DNA of 64,000 nt, taken from assembly GCA_963804995.1 (NCBI GenBank), contig CAWDSK010000003.1, positions 224,001-288,000 of the forward strand, read 5' to 3'. Positions 2,327 through 51,412 of the stretch are shown piece after piece. The position numbers were made by a program, and so were the translations under genes. The notes under the pieces were generated by a model. It did not search any database. It had not been told where the DNA came from and saw nothing but the letters and a program-made list of their open reading frames with translations. Positions within the stretch are counted from its first letter, which is position 1, and every line of letters begins with the position of its first letter. The DNA comes from an uncultured Acidobacteriota bacterium. GTDB taxonomy: Bacteria; Acidobacteriota; Terriglobia; UBA7540.

Positions 2327-2403
2327 GCGCCTGTAGCTCAGATGGATAGAGCGTTTGCCTCCGGAGCAAAAGGTCGCAGGTTCGAATCCTGCCAGGCGTA
2401 CCA
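2327..2403 (+). tRNA. tRNA-Arg (CCG)
   Basis: Acceptor GCGCCTG/CAGGCGT, D arm TAGCTCAGATGGATAGAGC, anticodon arm TTTGC-CTCCGGA-GCAAA, T loop GGTTCGAATCC, encoded CCA. Confidence 0.97.
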
Positions 2404-2626: not shown

Positions 2627-3649
2627 ATGAAAAATTGGACCCTGTCGCGGCGTCAATTTTTGCGCCGGGCTTCCGCGGGACTGGCCGTTGCTGGTTTTGC
2701 AGGAGGCGATTTTGTGGCATCAAAATACCCTGAGGAGGGCAAAGTAAGTGGGACCTCGCTCGCTATGCCCCGCTATGGCGCACAAGTGGGACAAGCTTAC
2801 GACCTCAAATCGCTGCGCATCTGGGACTGCCACACCCATTTAATTGGCTTCAAGGGTTCGACGCCAGCGGAGCGGATGGCGGACATGCTGCGTTTCGCCG
2901 ACCGTATGGATATTGAGCGGATGTGCGTGTTCCTGGGCATGAAGGAGGCCTTCCATGGTGGCCGGGAGGAGATGCGCCAGCAGAACGACGAGGTCCTGGA
3001 CGCCGTAAGCCACTCGGGTGGCCGCGCCCTGGGTTACGCCTTCATGGATCCCTTTTCCGATGTCCCCGCCTGCGTCGATGAAATCAACCGGTGTGTGCGC
3101 GACGGCCCCATGGTGGGTTTGAAGTTTGAGTATGACACGCTGCGCCATCCGGGTGAGCAGCCGGGCGCGCCGACCTACGGAACTCCTCGCGACCTGAGTT
3201 TTCTGGACCCGATTTTCAAGCGCGCCGGTGAGCTCGATGCCGTCATCCTGCATCACACCTGGATTAATTCGCTGGGACCCGAGGACCCCGCCGAATCCAC
3301 GCCCATGGAGATCGCCGCGATCGCCCGCCGCCATCCCACCGTGACCGTCATCTGCGGCCACACGGGAGGCAATTGGGAGCTGGGGATTCGCGCCATCCGC
3401 GGGGTGAAGAACGTTTACGCTGATCTCTGCGGGTCCGATCCCGTGGCGGGCTACACGGAGATGGCGGTGCGCGAATTAGGCGCGGAGCGCGTGATGTACG
3501 GCAGCGACGTGGGTGGGCGCAGCTTTGCGTCGCAGCTTGCGAAGGTGATGGGTGCGGATATTCCCGAATCGGCGCGGCGCCTGGTTCTGGGCGGAAATTT
3601 GCGCCGCGTGCTGCAACCCATTCTTACGGCAAAGGGGTTGAAGGTGTGA
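2627..3649 (+). CDS. Tat-exported amidohydrolase family 2 protein
   Basis: GGAGG RBS, SRRQFL twin-arginine motif, DCHTH metal motif, YGSD near the C-terminus. Confidence 0.85.
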   Translation: MKNWTLSRRQFLRRASAGLAVAGFAGGDFVASKYPEEGKVSGTSLAMPRYGAQVGQAYDLKSLRIWDCHTHLIGFKGSTPAERMADMLRFADRMDIERMCVFLGMKEAFHGGREEMRQQNDEVLDAVSHSGGRALGYAFMDPFSDVPACVDEINRCVRDGPMVGLKFEYDTLRHPGEQPGAPTYGTPRDLSFLDPIFKRAGELDAVILHHTWINSLGPEDPAESTPMEIAAIARRHPTVTVICGHTGGNWELGIRAIRGVKNVYADLCGSDPVAGYTEMAVRELGAERVMYGSDVGGRSFASQLAKVMGADIPESARRLVLGGNLRRVLQPILTAKGLKV

Positions 3650-3691
3650 GGAGGGTGGCCGCGGCGCAAAGCCGCGGCGCGGGCATGTTGC

Positions 3692-3838
3692 GTAGCGCGG
3701 TCCCCCGCATTTGGGATCCGCGGTTCTTCGTTTTGGAAGAACCTCAAAGGTCGAACAAAGACGGCTTCTTCGCCATGATACATTCGCTCAATTGGCGCAG
3801 GAAGAGCCGCAGACCTCAACGGCGGAGGTCTGCGCTAC
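3692..3838. repeat. Single REP doublet (REPIN), same family as the 6287-7097 array
   Basis: GTAGCGCGGTCCCCC...GATCCGCGGTTCTTC and inverted GAAGAGCCGCAGACCTCAACGGCGGAGGTCTGCGCTAC. Confidence 0.85.
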
Positions 3839-3876
3839 ACGGGCTGTTCATCGACATAATGCTGAGGAAGCAAAAC

Positions 3877-6270
3877 ATGGTTGGCCACAAGCGGTCCGGC
3901 GGATGGCGCGTGGCATTCCCAGCGCCGACCTTGGGCCCAGCGATAGTCTTTAGCATTGGGGCACTCGTCTTCAGCGCGGCAGTGTTGCTTGGACAGAACC
4001 CCTGCGCCAATACGGCCGAGGGCCAGGCGTTATTCGGCAAAAACTGTGCGGGTTGCCATGGGGCTGACGCTTTGGGAAGTGACCGCGGACCGGCGCTCGC
4101 CGGCAATCGCGACTTGAGCGACCGGTCCCTGCGGAGTTTGCACGAGTTGATCAAGCTGGGGATTCCGGGGACGGGCATGCCGGCGTTCGATCTGCCCGAC
4201 AAAGATCTGGAGGCGCTTGCCGAATTCGTGCATTCACTCAATTGGCAGGCGGCGGGAACGAGCGTGCCGGGCGACCCTGCGGCCGGAGAGAAATATTTTT
4301 TCGGTAACGGGAAATGCAGTTCCTGCCACATGGTATCGAGCCGAGGGTCGGCCGTCGGTCCCAACCTCTCGAACCTCGGAAACGAAAAGACCCTCGAGGA
4401 GATTCGCGCGGCGCTTCTCAGCCCAATGCGCATGTGACTCCCGGCTACCAGTTGGTCACTGTCATCCTGCGCGATGGGAAAACCGTGCGCGGCTTTGCGC
4501 GCAACCGCACCAATTACGATATTCGTGTCGAAGACCTTCAGGGGAAATTCCATCTGATCGAAGAGGGCCAGTTTGTTTCGGTCCGCGCGGAGAAAGCCTC
4601 GGCCATGCCCGCGGTACAGGCTCGCCCGCAGGAGTTGCAGGATCTGATTGCCTACCTCAGCCACCTGACAGGTGTTGAGCCGGGCGCGCTGGCGGTCGCA
4701 TCTGCATTCTGCCCCCGGCGACATTGACTTTGAGCGGATTCTGCATCCCCGCCCCGGCGACTGGGCTACTTACAACGGGACCCTGAACGCGAACCGTTAC
4801 AGCGACCTCGCCCAAATCAACACCACCAACGTCAACCAGTTAAAATTGCGCTGGGTCTTCACGGTCCCCCTGTGGAAGAACCTTGTCCCTGACTCGCCGT
4901 ACTACGAGCAGAATTACGAAACCTTTGGGCTGGAGACGACGCCGCTGGTGGCCGACGGCATCATGTACATCACCGGTCCCGGGTCGGTCTTCGCGCTCGA
5001 TGCCCTGTCGGGGCGCTTGATCTGGCAGTACTCACGCCATCGCACTCCCAGCGTGGTGGGAGACGCGTCCCTCGGCACGAATCGCGGCGCGGCCATCCTG
5101 GGGGACAAGGTATTTTTTGTAACCGACAACGCACACCTGATCGCGCTCAACCGCACCACCGGAAAACTGGTTTGGGAAGCGGTGATGCCGGAAGAGGCCC
5201 AGCACTACGGTGGCACCGTGGCCCCCTTGGTCGTCAAGGATATGGTGGTCGCGGGTGTGGCGGGAGGCGATTGGGGGATTCGCGGATTTGTGGCCGCGTT
5301 TAAGGCCGAAACGGGTGAACGGGTTTGGCGAACCTATACCATCCCCGCCAAGGGAGAGCCGGGAATTGAGACTTGGGGTCCCCAAGAACCCAAGTTGGGA
5401 GGCGGTGGCACCTGGCTGACCGGCTCCTATGACCCCGAAACCGATACGCTTTACTGGCCGACCGGCAATCCCTGGCCTGATTCGGACGACCGCGACCGCC
5501 CCGGCGACAACCTGTATACCGATTCCATCCTGGCGCTCGATCCCGCCACGGGAAAGATGAAGTGGTATTACCAGTTCACACCCCACGATGTGAAGGATCA
5601 GGACGCTAATCAGCCCCCGGTGCTGATCGATGCACACTATCAGGGGCAGGACCGCAAGCTAATGTTGTTTGGGGGCCGCAATGGATTCTTCTATGTGCTC
5701 GATCGAACAAACGGCAAAGTCCTGCTGGCGAAGCCTCTGGTGAAATGGCTGACTTGGGCGAGCGGAATTGGCGCGGATGGGCGGCCGCAACTTCTGAAGG
5801 AAGGCAACGTATCCTGCCCGGATATTGCCACCAACTGGAACGCTACGGCCTTCAGCCCCAAGACCCGCCTCTATTACGTGATGGTGCGGGAGAGGTGCGT
5901 GGTCAACCTCGCGTCATTGCGGCGCGGCGAGGAACCGCCGCACGTGGAGCCGGAAAAGAAGTACCTGCGCGCCCTTGATATCGAAACAGGAAGGATTGTT
6001 TGGGAAATGCCGCAGGCCGGTCCCGCCCGCGAGAAGAGAGAAGCGGGGGTGCTGGCGACCGCGGGGGGTCTGATTTTCTACGGAGACCCGCCGGGAGATT
6101 TTGTGGCCTTGGATGAACGAAACGGGAAACCCCTGTGGCACTTCCCTGCCGGCGCGGAAAATAAAACCTCGCCCATGACTTACACGGTGGGCAATAAACA
6201 GTTTGTGGCGATCGCTATCGGGCCCAATGTGCTTTGCTTTGCCTTGCCTTCGGGGACGGCCATGAAATGA
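3877..6270 (+). CDS. Di-heme cytochrome c / PQQ-dependent dehydrogenase fusion, two apparent frameshifts (~4423 and ~4700)
   Basis: CAGCH and CSSCH heme motifs, then a heme-binding-associated segment (ORF 4314..4727). ORF 4672..6270 is a PQQ beta-propeller with ALDA..G..W repeats and YQFTPHD. Confidence 0.8.
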
Positions 6271-6286: not shown

Positions 6287-7097
6287 GGCCTGTTTCGTAG
6301 CGCGGTCCCCCGGTTTTGGGGTCCGCGGTTCTTCGTTTGCCTGACCCGCAAAACTCAAAGACCTCTTCGCCACGATACTTTCGCTCATATGACGCAGGAA
6401 GAACCGCAGACCTCAACGGCGGAGGTCTGCGCTACGCCGCTCGTGGCCCGGACGGCCTGTTTCGTAGCGCGGTCCCCCGGTTTTGGGGTCCGCGGCTCTT
6501 CGTTTGCCTGACCCGCAAAACTCAAAGACCTCTTCGCCACGATACTTTCGCTCATATGACGCAGGAAGAACCGCAGACCTCAACGGCGGAGGTCTGCGCT
6601 ACGCCGCTCGTGGCCCGGGCGGCCTGTTTCGTAGCGCGGTCCCCCGGTTTTGGGGTCCGCGGCTCTTCGTTTGCCTAACCTGCAAAACTCAAAGACCTCT
6701 TCGCCACGATACTTTCGCTCATATGACGCAGGAAGAACCGCAGACCTCAACGGCGGAGGTCTGCGCTACGCCGCTCGTGGCCCGGGCGGCCTGTTTCGTA
6801 GCGCGGTCCCCCGGTTTTGGGGTCCGCGGCTCTTCGTTTGCCTAACCTGCAAAACTCAAAGACCTCTTCGCCACGATACTTTCGCTCATATGACGCAGGA
6901 AGAACCGCAGACCTCAACGGCGGAGGTCTGCGCTACGCCGCTCGTGGCCCGGGCGGCCTGTTTCGTAGCGCGGTCCCCCGGTTTTGGGGTCCGCGGCTCT
7001 TCGTTTGCCTAACCTGCAAAACTCAAAGACCTCTTCGCCACGATACTTTCGCTCATATGACGCAGGAAGAACCGCAGACCTCAAAGGCGGAGGTCTG
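6287..7097. repeat. Tandem array of five 167-bp GTAG-REP doublets (BIME-like); the fifth unit is interrupted by an intron and resumes at 9011
   Basis: Units start at 6287, 6454, 6621, 6788 and 6955. Each has two inverted GTAG+palindrome arms around a near-constant spacer. Confidence 0.93.
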
Positions 7098-9010
7098 GTG
7101 CGCCGGGATAAACCGGCAGAAAGCAGAGAATGAAAATTTCTCACGAGGAAGGAGTAGCGATCCACTCGGCCCCGAGTTTTGCGCTGGGCGTCGTGAGGCG
7201 CACGGTGAAGCGTAAACAGGGGAATAGGTGGGCTGGGTATTGAGCTTCGGAAATGTCCAATCAGGACGCCGACGTTTTCAGACTAAACGGAAGGCAACAT
7301 GAGGCCGGGACGCCAACGCGAGTTCCGGCACAGTCCTGCGTAGTCGTAGACCCCAGACACGCCTAGACACTTTCTGCACGAGAACCGGGAGACCTCGGAG
7401 GCGCCGGCCGCCGTAGATCGTGGCCGGACGGCGGGAAAAGGCGATGGCCGTACAGCCCGCCTGCACGCTTTCGAGGAGTCGGACAGCGGAACAGTACCGA
7501 TGAATCATTTGAACAAAGACGGGAAGCCGTTGGCGGAGAATGAGGAGGGAAGGCCGCTGATCAAGGAGAACACCCGTTGGCCTAACACGCACCCGACACA
7601 GAGCGGGGCACGCGTGTCCCAGGGACTCGCGGGTGTGCGGAAAGCCGCGAAGGAACACAGGGAGATGAAGTTCACGGCCTTGCTCCACCACTTAACGGTC
7701 GATCTGCTGCGGGAAAGCTTTTACGCCTTGAAGCGAAAAGCTGCACCGGGAGTAGACGGCATGACGTGGCAGGAGTATGAAAGCGGGCTGGAAGGTCGAC
7801 TCGTCGATCTGCACAGCCGGGTCCACCGCGGAGCATTCCGAGCGAAGCCCTCGCGAAGGGCGTATATCCCGAAAGGCGACGGGCGGCAACGTCCGTTGGG
7901 GGTTGCGGCACTGGAGGACAAGATCGTCCAACAGGCCGTGGTCACCATCCTCAATGCGATTTACGAGGAAGACTTTCTGGGCTTCTCGTATGGCTTTCGA
8001 CCGGGATGCAGCCAGCATCAAGCGCTGGACGCGCTCTCGTACGCGCTCACGGTGAAGCACGTGAACTACGTTCTTGACGCGGACATTCGTGGATTTTTCG
8101 ATTCGATATCCCACGAATGGATGCTCAAGTTCGTGCAGCATCGCGTCGCCGACCCCCGGATTCTCCGGCTCATCCAGAAATGGCTGAAAGCCGGGGTGAT
8201 GGAGGAAGGCGAATGGTCGGAGACGGAGATGGGTACGCCACAAGGGGCGGTGGTCTCGCCCCTGCTGGCGAATATCTATCTGCACTACGTCTTTGACCTG
8301 TGGGTGCAGGCGTGGCGCAAGAAGCACGCCCGGGGAGACGTGGTCGTGGTGCGGTATGCCGACGATACGGTCCTTGGATTCCAATCGCAGACGGAAGCCG
8401 ACCGCTTTCTGGAGGATTTCCGGGAGCGGGTGGGGAAGTTTGGATTGGAACTGCATCCTGACAAAACGCGCCGGATCGAGTTCGGGCCGTTTGCCGAACT
8501 TTACCGGAAACGGAGAGGAGAAGGTAAGCCGGAGACGTTCGACTTTCTGGGCTTCACGCATATCAGCGGGAAGAACCGGAGGGGGCAATTTACCGTGAAG
8601 CGGAAGACGATCAGCAAGCGCCTGCGGGGGAAGTTGCAGGAACTCAAGCAACAACTCCGGCAGCGTCGGCACGATCCCATCGCGGATACGGGTAAATGGC
8701 TCCGGTCGGTCGTGCAAGGCTACTTCAACTATCACGCGGTACCGGGAAACCTCGACCGCCTGCGAATCTTTCGGGAACGGTTGACCCGACTGTGGCGAAC
8801 GCAACTGCGTCAACGCAGTCAACGCCACCGCCTCAACTGGGACCGACTGGGGAAGCTTGCGGCCTGCTGGTTGCCTGCTCCGCACGTTGTGCATCCTTGG
8901 CCATCCCAACGGTTCGCCGCCACACATCCGAGATAAGAGCCGTATGCGCTAACCAGCGCACGTACGGATCCGTGCGGGGGGTACCGGGTAACCGGTATCC
9001 CTACCGCAAC
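7098..9010 (+). mobile_element. Full-length group II intron (1913 nt)
   Basis: 5' GTGCG; domain V GAGCCGTATGCG...CGCACGTACGGATC (8937-8970, AGC triad); domain VI ending CCCTACCGCAAC. Flanks rejoin as GGAGGTCTG|CGCTACGCCGC, the intact repeat sequence. Confidence 0.95.
7614..8936 (+). CDS. ltrA: Group II intron reverse transcriptase/maturase, no C-terminal endonuclease evident
   Basis: APGVDG, RPLG, FSYGFRPG, GTPQG..VSPLLANIYL, VRYADD, FDFLGF. Start uncertain (ORF open from 7500; GTG at 7614 preferred). Confidence 0.93.
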   Translation: MSQGLAGVRKAAKEHREMKFTALLHHLTVDLLRESFYALKRKAAPGVDGMTWQEYESGLEGRLVDLHSRVHRGAFRAKPSRRAYIPKGDGRQRPLGVAALEDKIVQQAVVTILNAIYEEDFLGFSYGFRPGCSQHQALDALSYALTVKHVNYVLDADIRGFFDSISHEWMLKFVQHRVADPRILRLIQKWLKAGVMEEGEWSETEMGTPQGAVVSPLLANIYLHYVFDLWVQAWRKKHARGDVVVVRYADDTVLGFQSQTEADRFLEDFRERVGKFGLELHPDKTRRIEFGPFAELYRKRRGEGKPETFDFLGFTHISGKNRRGQFTVKRKTISKRLRGKLQELKQQLRQRRHDPIADTGKWLRSVVQGYFNYHAVPGNLDRLRIFRERLTRLWRTQLRQRSQRHRLNWDRLGKLAACWLPAPHVVHPWPSQRFAATHPR

Positions 9011-9100
9011 CGCTACGCCGCGGGTGGCCCTGAAGGGGCGGAATAGGTGAATCCGTATAGCGCAGGGCAAGATGTGCGGGGTTTTGAAATGAGTTCTGGT

Positions 9101-10555
9101 TTACTCTGGCGGGATCTCCTCAGGATTTGTAAGAGCAATCCCTTCTGCGGGCTCCTCGGAATCCACGTCTCGAAGACTGCGTTTTGGACCCCATGCCCTG
9201 GGAAACTTCTTGGGCAACACCCCAGCACCGGATTTTCGTAACATCCTATCCAGAGCGAGCACGTAGGGGAAAATCGGAGCGCTCAGCATCCAAGCCGCCG
9301 AATAGTAAGCGAACGTCGATTCGCTGATGGAGGAAATGGTGATGAAGAGCAGAACTCCGGGGATATCAGGTGGGATCAAGGACTTGTCGCGTGGCTGGCG
9401 AAAGACGAAATGCTTTGCCGTAACCCACCAAACCACGGTAAGTGCGAGGATGGCCGCTCCACCCCCCAGGACGCCCGTTTGTATCAAGACGTGCAAGAAG
9501 GCGTCGTGAATATGTTGTCCGGACAAGTAGACGCGATCAGCCTGAAAACCAAAGCCCCACCAGGGAGATCTGAGAAAAAGATCCCACCCTTCTACCCAGA
9601 CTCTGGTGCGTCCGGTTATGGAGAGATCGACTTTGCCAGTCCGGGTTAAATAGAGGAAGGCGTGTGAGAAGAATCCCATCACACCCAAAAGACAGGTGGC
9701 GGCAACGCCTGCCGCGACGAAGACCGTGCGTCGGGCCCTTTGCACCCACATAACCAGAAAAGCGCTGGCCACAAACGCCAGAACTTCGGTGCGCCCATTG
9801 GCGATCACGAGGGAATAGAACGAAGCAAGAAATACCACGAACCAGATGAAACGGACAGAGCGCTTGCCCTCCCAAAGGCGGGAAAGAGCCACGATGCCGG
9901 AAATCGCGGCGTACCTTGCAAAACCCGTATTCCGCGAAGCCATCCCGAGTATCTCACCGCTGGCCTGATAGTTCCCCTCCCGAATCTCGCCTTGATAACC
10001 CGTCAAGGCGCCTCGACCCAGGCCTGGAATGACCCCCAATATGCCGAACGTAATGAAAACGCTCACCAGCCAGGTGAAGGTCATTACGTGCCGGAGATCT
10101 GGAAGGGGATTCGGTACCATGACTATCGCCACAAGCATCAACACAATCGACAGATAGGTACAACCAAAGAAAGTGGCATAGGAGGCATTGCTCGATACAA
10201 ACAGGGACGAAGCCAAACCCACAATCGAATAGAAAAACAGCCAGCCGAGTGGCCCGCTGATCCAGGGCGCTAAACGATTGATTCGAGTCATGATGACAAT
10301 AAGGGCGACCCAACCACCCAATATGGGAAAGTAGGCCCTGATACCCTGGATAAAAGCACCGGCAGTGGTCATGAGGCGCGGGTCGAATAAGAGATCGGGA
10401 GCGGCGTTATACCCCGCCCAGAGCAAAGTCCACATTCCGATGCCCATGATGGCATTGGGACTGATCCGCTTTTGAGCCAAGGCCGCCTGAGGCAGTGCGG
10501 CCGCCCTGCTGGCCCGCTGCACCCTGCGGATAGGTCTTGTTACGTCTACACCCAT
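9101..10555 (-). CDS. O-antigen ligase/polymerase (Wzy_C-like) membrane protein
   Basis: Many transmembrane segments; SITGRT.VW...P.WG.G and HIHD....L..TG.LG motifs. Confidence 0.8.
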   Translation of the reverse strand: MGVDVTRPIRRVQRASRAAALPQAALAQKRISPNAIMGIGMWTLLWAGYNAAPDLLFDPRLMTTAGAFIQGIRAYFPILGGWVALIVIMTRINRLAPWISGPLGWLFFYSIVGLASSLFVSSNASYATFFGCTYLSIVLMLVAIVMVPNPLPDLRHVMTFTWLVSVFITFGILGVIPGLGRGALTGYQGEIREGNYQASGEILGMASRNTGFARYAAISGIVALSRLWEGKRSVRFIWFVVFLASFYSLVIANGRTEVLAFVASAFLVMWVQRARRTVFVAAGVAATCLLGVMGFFSHAFLYLTRTGKVDLSITGRTRVWVEGWDLFLRSPWWGFGFQADRVYLSGQHIHDAFLHVLIQTGVLGGGAAILALTVVWWVTAKHFVFRQPRDKSLIPPDIPGVLLFITISSISESTFAYYSAAWMLSAPIFPYVLALDRMLRKSGAGVLPKKFPRAWGPKRSLRDVDSEEPAEGIALTNPEEIPPE

Positions 10556-46951: not shown

Positions 46952-47096
46952 GTAGCGCGGTCCCCCGCTTTTGGGGTCCGCGGTTCTTCGTTCGCACTGC
47001 CTGCCGAATTGGTTGCTGGACGACCCCCTCACCCGTCCCGCCCCGTCTGATGAAAACGCCGGTTGCGGTCCACCCTCTCCCCCAAAGGGGCGAGGG
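46952..47096. repeat. Single array-family REP (46952-46989) plus a CCCTCTCCC-family repeat (47024-47096)
   Basis: Direct sequence match to the 6287 array arm and to 15223-15295. Confidence 0.8.
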
Positions 47097-51374: not shown

Positions 51375-51412
51375 GTAGCGCGGACCTCCGCCGTTGAGGT
51401 CCGCGGCTCTTC
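51375..51412. repeat. Single array-family REP
   Basis: GTAGCGCGGACCTCCGCCGTTGAGGTCCGCGGCTCTTC. Confidence 0.8.

What the first reader, a model, noticed from the sequence alone, without database searches (positions are those of the whole stretch)
6287..9030. Group II intron whose target site is a genome-dispersed REP element
Seen: excising 7098-9010 restores repeat unit 5 exactly (GGAGGTCTG|CGCTACGCCGC). Within intron domain I, the hairpin CGTTT-TCAGACT-AAACG displays CAGACT (7279-7284), which pairs with the last six exon bases GGTCTG (five Watson-Crick pairs and one G.U). That is an EBS1-IBS1 match to the REP's conserved stem. The same target sequence is unoccupied in units 1-4 and at ~3827-3838. 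Established: IIC introns insert after terminators or attC hairpins, and some IS elements target REPs. This intron has an AGC triad and a full-length domain V, so it is not a typical IIC intron. Inference: a retroelement programmed against a multicopy, intergenic REP, giving it many harmless landing sites. I do not know whether this has been described.
Basis: partly seen in the sequence, partly recalled or inferred. Interest (0 to 1): 0.85.

Follow-up and report, generated by a model that had tools for sequence, protein, structure and literature searches.

The report
Mobile intron homing into REP repeats
A self-splicing mobile intron has copied itself about forty times in this bacterium, always into the same spot and strand of a small repeated DNA hairpin that its RNA guide sequences pair with, which looks like ordinary intron homing aimed at an unusual, abundant target.

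Summary
Confirmed and extended. The 1913-nt intron (7098-9010) sits in a REP hairpin, and its removal rebuilds the REP base for base. The genome holds 39 near-identical full copies plus one cut by a contig end. All 39 are followed by CGCYA, and all 37 readable 5' exons end in RGTCYG. The REPs are GTAG- and CTGG-footed and flank two RAYT genes. Across 50 distinct homologues, exon positions -1..-6 covary with 7279-7284, confirming EBS1. New here: EBS3 (7346), a weak EBS2 (7254-7258) that reads the REP loop, use of one REP strand only (30 of 132 versus 0 of 126), and a strong replication-strand bias (17 of 28 versus 1 of 50). That bias probably explains the window's empty units. The protein groups with class E and lacks an endonuclease. 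Best reading: ordinary class E retrohoming into single-stranded DNA at the fork, retargeted to a REP. Need for the hairpin fold is not shown, and relatives argue against it. 'Harmless' is untested. Nine literature searches found no REP-homing group II intron. The scan already reported this family four times from other windows of this genome.

The parts
7098..9010 (+). Group II intron, 1913 nt, GUGCG...AC, class E-like; one of 39 full copies in the genome
7155..7159 (+). Probable alpha element (UAGCG) in the Ib loop
   Evidence: position; role inferred from the Rfam consensus and conservation
7254..7258 (+). Probable EBS2 (UGUCC), pairs imperfectly with exon -13..-9, which is the REP loop
   Evidence: register scan (mean score 3.13 versus 0.97-1.96 for five other registers); covariation
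7279..7284 (+). EBS1 (CAGACU), pairs with exon -6..-1
   Evidence: best partner columns for -1..-6 are 7279..7284 in antiparallel order
7317..7321 (+). Probable alpha' (CGCGA) at the tip of a stem-loop 3' of EBS1, a class E/F feature
   Evidence: feature described in PMC3753933 Introduction; the pairing itself is inferred
7346..7346 (+). EBS3 (G), pairs with the +1 C of the 3' exon
   Evidence: 0.95 paired versus 0.73 expected, 44 sequences
7500..8936 (+). Intron-encoded reverse transcriptase/maturase, 478 aa from the first ATG (true start not tested), YADD, no endonuclease domain found
   Evidence: TIGR04416 346 bits over cut-off 300; Pfam RVT_1 only
8937..8970 (+). Domain V, 34 nt, AGC triad at 8938-8940, non-GNRA loop
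8973..9008 (+). Domain VI with a probable branch A at 9003, eighth base from the end
   Evidence: branch role inferred
6287..7097 (.). Tandem array of 167-bp REP doublets (REPIN-like units): a GTAG REP on + (6297, 6464, 6631, 6798, 6965) and an inverted GTAG REP on -
7075..7097 (+). 5' exon part of the invaded REP (5' arm, loop with IBS2, 3' arm with IBS1 GGTCTG)
9011..9016 (+). 3' exon part of the invaded REP (CG plus the complement of the GTAG foot)
6407..6936 (-). Four empty target REPs (6407-6435, 6574-6602, 6741-6769, 6908-6936); their target strand is the disfavoured replication strand
3690..3838 (.). Single REP doublet with an empty target (GGTCTG|CGCTAC at 3827-3838)

Best explanation
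A young, probably still active class E (IIE/IIB-like), endonuclease-minus group II intron whose exon-binding sites match the conserved end of the host's RAYT-associated REPs. Shown from sequence: boundaries, copy number, target consensus, EBS1 and EBS3 covariation, strand and replichore bias. Inferred from RmInt1/RmInt2 biology: the intron is transcribed from an upstream promoter and splices with its protein. The RNP then finds single-stranded DNA on the lagging-strand template at the fork. It pairs EBS1 with GGTCTG, EBS3 with the +1 C and a weak EBS2 with the REP loop, while the protein reads +2..+5 (GCYA, running into the foot complement). The RNA reverse-splices, and the nascent lagging strand primes cDNA synthesis. 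The REP supplies over a hundred such sites, hence the burst to about 40 copies. The hairpin is part of the target's sequence but need not be recognised as a fold.
For: 39 of 39 full copies are followed by CGCYA; 37 of 37 readable 5' exons end in GGTCTG (32), GGTCCG (4) or AGTCTG (1). Occupancy of foot-side REP sites tracks EBS1 match: GGTCTG 31 of 134, AGTCTG 1 of 18, GGTCCG 3 of 100, GGACCG 0 of 108. EBS1 covaries with the exon in 50 distinct D1 sequences (0.82-0.96 paired versus 0.28-0.50 expected). A sister intron in G005 (92% aa) has EBS1 CGGACU and all 6 copies fetched sit at CCG-type REPs. The unused opposite-strand sites have a poor IBS2 in 122 of 126 cases and lack GCYA. Contigs C3 and C6 have a mostly negative GC skew; there the G-rich strand holds 17 of 28 occupied REP sites and the C-rich strand 1 of 50, as reported for RmInt1/2 (PMC4615759 passages; PMC1802570 abstract). 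37 of 37 copies of 1913 nt have an intact ORF and differ from their majority sequence by 0-6 nt. Relatives use sites with broken or no hairpin: 5 of 6 G005 copies have a stem mismatch, 1 of 3 G026 copies is in a degenerate REP, and an 83-86% relative with the same EBS1 CAGACU has a hairpin at 1 of 5 sites seen.
Against: Base pairing alone does not suffice: non-REP GGTCTG|C sites with IBS2 score 3 or more are empty (0 of 184; 0 of 34 intergenic by crude ORF calls versus 23 of 77 in REPs). The added role of +2..+5 is inferred, and in this genome it cannot be separated from the hairpin: only 6 no-hairpin GGTCTG|CGCYA sites lie on the favoured strand of C3+C6; 1 is occupied and it has a 6-bp stem. 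Two of 3 G026 copies lack CGCYA. EBS2 pairing is weak, and occupied sites score only slightly higher than empty ones (3.05 versus 2.71, p 0.04, sites not independent). In G005, 5 of 6 copies sit at sites with an EBS1 mismatch at -4 although 31 perfect GGTCCG|CGCTAC sites are empty; pure pairing does not predict this. GC skew is weak and the origin is not located. No splicing or homing was observed.
Confidence: 0.65

Rival explanations
1. Structure-assisted homing: the RNP recognises the folded single-stranded REP hairpin, as class C introns do with terminators and attC. EBS2 first pairs with the exposed REP loop, then EBS1 invades the stem.
For: IBS2 (-13..-9) falls in the 7-8-nt loop of the hairpin. 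No non-REP site is used in G000 (0 of 1162 GGTCTG|C). Lagging-template bias fits a single-stranded target. The G005 sister favours REPs with a stem mismatch at -4 over perfect ones, as if stem opening limits insertion. Hairpin targets recur in other branches: L032 (84% aa), L121 and L148 (61% aa, other strand of CTGG REPs).
Against: IBS1 is buried in the stem, so folding competes with EBS1, whereas class C inserts after the stem (PMC4424553 and PMC7923331 passages). Most relatives at 72-90% identity use sites with no hairpin (stems of 1-6 bp), and the same EBS1 is used at non-hairpin sites. The mirror site on the other strand of the same hairpin is never used.
Confidence: 0.22
2. Survivor bias: the intron inserts at many GGTCTG|C sites, and only insertions in REPs persist because the others are purged.
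For: Most non-REP sites lie in long ORFs (918 of 1147 by crude calls), where insertions may be harmful.
Against: Intergenic non-REP sites are also empty (0 of 229; 0 of 34 with good IBS2), and so are intergenic opposite-strand REP sites (0 of 110). Occupancy follows EBS1 match within REPs. Copies are very young.
Confidence: 0.05
3. Passive spread: intron plus REP were copied as one unit by RAYT or by recombination, not by retrohoming.
For: Two copies sit beside RAYT genes. Some neighbours share flanks (C6:2170486 and C6:2172663; C7 pair), and two G005 copies share a 5' flank.
Against: The 38 readable 5' flanks give 29 distinct 30-mers in two REP subfamilies, with unrelated 3' flanks, while the intron is over 99.4% identical. 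The strand bias is unexplained by co-mobilisation, and the insertion splits foot from hairpin.
Confidence: 0.04

Closest known systems
Bacterial class E (IIE) group II introns, e.g. S.me.I4 of Sinorhizobium meliloti GR4 and Cl.be.I2 (PMC3753933 Introduction and passages; PMC5894124 passages)
   Same: 57% identity to the broken RT on pRmeGR4b taken to be S.me.I4, versus 33-35% to the other GR4 intron RTs; groups with it apart from RmInt1/2. Alpha' at a stem-loop tip, about 480 nt of RNA outside the ORF, no endonuclease, 6-nt EBS1 with a weak EBS2.
   Different: The target is a RAYT-associated REP, and the copy number is about 40. The D5 loop reads as 4 nt on a 5-bp stem (or 6 nt), not the 5-nt loop described. 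No class E intron with a REP target was found in the searches.
RmInt1 and RmInt2 of S. meliloti (class D, IIB3; PMC4615759 passages, PMC1802570 abstract)
   Same: Endonuclease-minus, multicopy, home into a repeated element by EBS1/2/3 pairing plus protein reading of distal exon bases, tolerate EBS2 mismatches, prefer the lagging-strand template. RmInt2 uses the inverted repeats of ISRm17.
   Different: Class D, 33-35% identity. Their targets are insertion sequences, not short extragenic palindromes.
Class C (IIC) introns inserting after terminators or in attC (PMC4424553, PMC7923331, PMC8919778 passages)
   Same: Spread among many intergenic hairpin-bearing sites with a lagging-template bias.
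   Different: Here the insertion is inside the stem; EBS1 is 6 nt and covaries; an EBS2 is present; D5 is 34 nt with AGC; there is no preference for the transcribed strand (19 of 75 versus 11 of 57).
REP-targeting insertion sequences IS1397, ISKpn1, IS621, ISPa11, ISPpu9/10, ISPsy8, ISRm19/22 (PMC1525189 passages)
   Same: All copies break a REP at one fixed position.
   Different: Those are DNA transposases. This is a retroelement guided by ribozyme-exon pairing. That paper's table lists a Pseudomonas putida group II intron with only 2 of 9 copies REP-associated.
GTAG REP / REPIN / RAYT systems (PMC3733652 and PMC3479197 passages)
   Same: The target has a GTAG foot 5' of a 10-bp stem, occurs as inverted doublets and tandem arrays, and flanks NF047646 RAYT genes.
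   Different: A second subfamily has a CTGG foot, not seen in the passages read. Mobility of these REPs by these RAYTs was not tested.

Membership tests
Group II intron (retroelement form) | GUGYG...AY ends, domains I-VI with catalytic D5, RT/maturase ORF in D4 | tested here: met
   Rfam Intron_gpII scored 39.2 bits, just under its 40-bit gathering score (E 1.5e-5)
Group II intron (retroelement form) | Self-splicing and retrohoming activity | not testable with these tools
   only metagenome contigs were available to lay; activity is inferred from 39 young intact copies
Bacterial class E (IIE) | IEP falls in the class E clade | tested here: met
   57% to the presumed S.me.I4 versus 33-35% to class D and presumed class C; 100/100 split from RmInt1/2. 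One reference only, identified by inference; long-branch warning; no class F reference; the class C row was dropped as too short
Bacterial class E (IIE) | alpha' at the end of a stem-loop in Id3 (shared with class F) | tested here: met
   CGCGA at 7317-7321 at a hairpin tip, 4 of 5 complementary to UAGCG at 7155-7159; pairing not tested by covariation
Bacterial class E (IIE) | 5-nt loop in domain V | tested here: inconclusive
   this intron reads U-AACC-A; relatives at 54-70% identity show 5-nt loops
Bacterial class E (IIE) | No endonuclease domain; EBS1, EBS2 and EBS3 pairings | tested here: met
   EBS2 is weak
Class C (IIC) | Short EBS1 (3-4 bp), no EBS2, insertion after a stem-loop | tested here: not met
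   6-bp covarying EBS1, EBS2 signal, insertion within the stem
Class C (IIC) | Shortened D5 with CGC triad (feature recalled, not from a call) | tested here: not met
   34-nt D5 with AGC
GTAG REP / REPIN (the target) | Hairpin with a 5' GTAG foot, multicopy, mostly extragenic, inverted doublets | tested here: met
   509 hairpins of this pattern, 310 GTAG and 55 CTGG feet; 111 of 132 target sites outside long ORFs; doublets
GTAG REP / REPIN (the target) | A RAYT gene flanked by the same REPs | tested here: met
   6 NF047646 matches over cut-off; 2 of the 14 Y1 loci examined have these REPs on both sides, C5:58407-58817 (GTAG) and C6:722336-722818 (CTGG)
GTAG REP / REPIN (the target) | Bound and cleaved by the RAYT | not testable with these tools
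   needs biochemistry

The most novel reading that the evidence does not exclude
A class E intron lineage in Acidobacteriota is a specialised parasite of REPIN/RAYT systems. It reads the folded REP on the lagging-strand template, using a weak EBS2 as a toehold on the loop before EBS1 opens the stem. It tracks REP subtypes by single EBS1 changes, and by cutting the foot from the hairpin it removes REPs from the RAYT-replicated pool, including those beside the RAYT genes. That would be a second route to hairpin targeting besides class C and a three-level interaction between host repeat, domesticated transposase and retroelement.
Probability: 0.2. Interest if true: 0.8.

Novelty: new variant of a known kind. 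Interest (0 to 1): 0.55.

Why it matters
Bacterial group II introns usually occur at one or two copies (median 2 among 447 genomes that have any; PMC8919778 passages). Here one class E intron reached about 40 copies by matching a REP, a target described for IS elements but not found for group II introns in my searches. With about 130 near-identical sites, 30 of them filled, the genome is a natural homing experiment. It gives target rules and a replication-strand bias for class E, for which PMC3753933 (2013) had only in vitro splicing data and found EBS2 dispensable for splicing, suggesting a role in homing; the one-strand use of the REP is a direct test of that idea. It also bears on REPIN population dynamics, since each insertion splits a REP.

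Tried and rejected
1) I first read the variable -7..-13 bases as 'no IBS2' (note); reversed this. 2) The Ib loop (UAGCG) is complementary to the 3' exon CGCUA, but it is nearly constant in homologues with unrelated 3' exons, so it is taken as alpha, not a 3'-exon guide. 3) Terminator-type targeting: no link to the upstream gene's strand. 4) Whether the hairpin is needed apart from +2..+5: too few informative sites. 5) The covariation script stopped with an error after +3, so +4..+6 were not scanned; four loci with wrong boundaries (L058, L107, L125, L143) were left out and 71 loci were reduced to 50 distinct D1 sequences. 6) One search's boundary patterns missed many loci and were replaced. 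7) Public runs: only metagenome contigs, at most 0.57 of the words; they show relatives and empty REPs (loose ends at 7097 reading CGCTAC) but say nothing on splicing or expression of this copy. 8) Class assignment by plasmid annotation gave only 'ltrA'. 9) No protein fold or complex job was run; neither would change the verdict. 10) Literature searches listed no paper on a REP-homing group II intron; most subscription papers and the group II intron database are not searched, and no supplements were read.
Full report
Observation. The element at 7098-9010 is a complete group II intron: Rfam group-II-D1D4-6 at 7133-7353, D5-D6 at 8935-9010, and a 478-aa RT/maturase (TIGR04416 over cut-off; Pfam RVT_1 only). 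It lies in the last of five 167-bp units. Each unit is an inverted doublet of GTAG-footed hairpins. Removing the intron rebuilds the REP with no duplication.

Copies and targets. The laid genome G000 (7.55 Mb, 9 contigs) has 39 full copies over 99.4% identical and one cut by a contig end. All 39 are followed by CGCYA (CGCTAC 24, CGCCAG 13, CGCCAT 1, CGCCAA 1). Of 39, 37 have a readable 5' exon: GGTCTG 32, GGTCCG 4, AGTCTG 1, each preceded by the matching 5' arm of a hairpin. The copies are young: 37 of 37 copies of 1913 nt keep an open ORF and differ from their majority sequence by 0-6 nt. Four contig ends stop in or next to a copy, and two neighbouring pairs may be assembly duplicates, so 'about 40' is the safe count.

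The target is a RAYT-type REP. With introns removed in silico, 509 hairpins fit the pattern, with 310 GTAG and 55 CTGG feet. Six loci pass the NF047646 RAYT cut-off. Two of 14 Y1 loci examined are flanked by these REPs, one by GTAG doublets (C5:58407-58817) and one by CTGG REPs (C6:722336-722818); in both a flanking REP holds an intron copy. The insertion falls two bases from the foot. In E. coli both foot and hairpin are needed for RAYT binding (PMC3479197 passages), so an invaded REP is probably dead as a RAYT substrate; this is inference.

Exon-binding sites. In 50 distinct D1 sequences (71 loci; four with wrong boundaries left out), the intron columns that pair best with exon -1..-6 are 7279..7284 in order (0.92, 0.96, 0.88, 0.82, 0.92, 0.86 versus 0.28-0.50 expected), and +1 pairs with 7346 (0.95 versus 0.73). 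The sequences are related, so these are not independent events, but the targets differ widely. A weaker signal lies at 7254-7257. In G000, UGUCC (7254-7258) pairs best with -13..-9 (3.13 versus at most 1.96 in five other registers; C at -10 in 37 of 38), which is the REP loop. The segment covaries in other lineages too, with a one-base shift in one clade.

Selectivity. Among foot-side REP sites, occupancy follows EBS1: GGTCTG 31 of 134, AGTCTG 1 of 18, GGTCCG 3 of 100, GGACCG 0 of 108. Among 1466 GGTCTG|C sites, a second classification gives foot-side REP 30 of 132, opposite-strand REP 0 of 126, foot without a full hairpin 1 of 37, other hairpins 0 of 9, non-REP 0 of 1162 (three copies at contig ends could not be scored). 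Opposite-strand sites have a poor IBS2 (122 of 126) and lack GCYA. Non-REP sites with a good IBS2 are still empty (0 of 184; 0 of 34 intergenic), so something beyond EBS1/2/3 is read: either +2..+5 or the fold. In RmInt1-type introns the protein reads distal exon bases including +2..+5 (PMC4615759 passages), which is the simpler reading.

Replication bias. Contigs C3 and C6 have negative GC skew over most of their length. There, GGTCTG foot-side REPs are filled at 17 of 28 on the G-rich strand and 1 of 50 on the C-rich strand. The G-rich strand is normally the lagging-strand template (established knowledge; origin not located here). This matches RmInt1, which fills lagging-template sites first (PMC8632793 passages; PMC1802570 abstract). 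The window's copy is the 1 of 50, and its five empty neighbours are on the same disfavoured strand. There is no link to transcription direction (19 of 75 versus 11 of 57).

Class. The GR4 plasmid pRmeGR4b carries a disrupted class E intron, S.me.I4 (PMC5894124 passages). The broken RT found there is 57% identical to this protein, against 33-35% for the other GR4 intron RTs. A 38-row tree separates the group from RmInt1/2 at 100/100, with a long-branch warning; the presumed class C row and four short matches were dropped. Alpha' at a stem-loop tip fits class E/F (PMC3753933 Introduction). Class E is likely; class F was not tested.

Relatives. The closest three (G000, G005 92%, G026 88%) form a weakly supported group (91/62), all at REP or REP-like sites. 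G005 has EBS1 CGGACU and 6 of 6 fetched copies at CCG-type REPs; five of these carry a mismatch at -4 that also breaks the stem, though 31 perfect sites are empty; this is unexplained. G026 has EBS1 CAGACC and 3 copies, 2 in clear hairpins, only 1 with CGCYA. A truncated copy in G002 sits in a CTGG-type REP arm. L032 (84%, another branch) sits in a GTAG hairpin, and L121 and L148 (61%) sit on the far side of CTGG hairpins. Against a lineage-wide need for hairpins, a G005 intron at 83-86% with EBS1 CAGACU has a hairpin at 1 of 5 sites, and most relatives at 72-90% use other motifs. The exact target GGTCTGCGCTAC occurs in 28 of 29 genomes of the genus, at 1-84 copies.

Mechanism and verdict. Most likely (0.65) ordinary class E retrohoming on the lagging-strand template, with EBS1/2/3 and protein contacts that happen to fit one strand of the REP. 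Structure-assisted homing is the main rival (0.22). Steps shown: boundaries, targets, pairings by covariation, strand biases. Steps inferred: splicing, single-stranded target, priming, protein reading of +2..+5.

Novelty. IS elements that break REPs at a fixed base are known (PMC1525189 passages), as are introns homing into repeated IS sequences and class C introns at hairpins; class E fragments after attC-like hairpins were noted in PMC7923331 (passages). Nine searches of the open library (listings only unless stated) showed no REP-homing group II intron. Subscription papers, the intron database and supplements were not seen and may hold such a case. Also read as passages: PMC4424553, PMC3733652, PMC8919778. 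The scan's own notes list this family four times from other windows of this genome, and similar cases in other genomes; these are unchecked AI notes and were not counted as support. Verdict: new variant of a known kind, interest 0.55.

Noticed in passing
L035-L038, L051-L053, L060-L107 (many loci): A large clade of relatives (72-79% aa) in Acidobacteriota homes into one conserved site on either strand (…AAATCGCCATTACA|CTCAT on one strand, …GCGATGTTA|CGCCAAC on the other). It looks like a tyrosine-recombinase-type site with inverted arms (label from my own knowledge). EBS1 and EBS2 covary with it.
   Followed up: partly
L004, L033, L034, L048, L146, L159, L185; remnants at G000 C2:652257 and C1:206552: Another group of relatives (81-85% aa) homes into a dispersed motif of the form ATGTTGATGAAAAGAAAGGGAGTT| with EBS1 AACUUC/AACUAC/UUGUUC; the motif looks like a second host repeat family.
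   Followed up: no
L181 (G006:C359), L154, L176, L182: Relatives that start GAAAGCG instead of GUGCG and sit in the same REPs. L181 is a complete 652-nt ORF-less intron at GGTCCG|CGCTAC with EBS1 CGGACU. Contigs in two public runs also skip about 7640-8913, like ORF-less derivatives.
   Followed up: partly
L031, L032, L042, L081, L121, L126-L129, L148: Many full-length class E-like relatives have non-standard 5' ends (GAGCG, GUAAGCG, GAAAGCG, GAUAGCG) placed by EBS1 pairing, while domain VI looks intact where it could be read.
   Followed up: no
L081, L188: Head-to-tail tandem intron copies: one intron's 3' end is followed directly by the next 5' end, as reported for RmInt2.
   Followed up: no
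G058:C1 (L130-L139): 18 listed identical copies of a more distant relative (54% aa) in one genome; 3' exons vary and 5' ends were not resolved.
   Followed up: no
G000 C3:1125753-1126646, C1:97964-98857, C1:288983-289876, C6:293962-296931, C5:1086970-1127133, C9:153936-154739: Other multicopy RT genes at 32-37% identity: further group II intron families in this genome.
   Followed up: no
window 46952-46980 and 51375-51403: Two more GTAG REPs, one GGACCG-type and one GGTCCG-type, both empty.
   Followed up: no
window 3646-6270: A cytochrome c-like ORF and a PQQ-dependent dehydrogenase-like ORF (PF01011) appear to be one gene region broken over several frames near 4437 and 4700; frameshifts or sequencing errors.
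   Followed up: no
window 9101-38000, - strand: A long run of polysaccharide-synthesis-like genes (O-antigen ligase/Wzy_C at 9101-10555, glycosyltransferase-like ORFs) converges on the REP array.
   Followed up: no
window 2327-2400: tRNA gene (Rfam RF00005).
   Followed up: no
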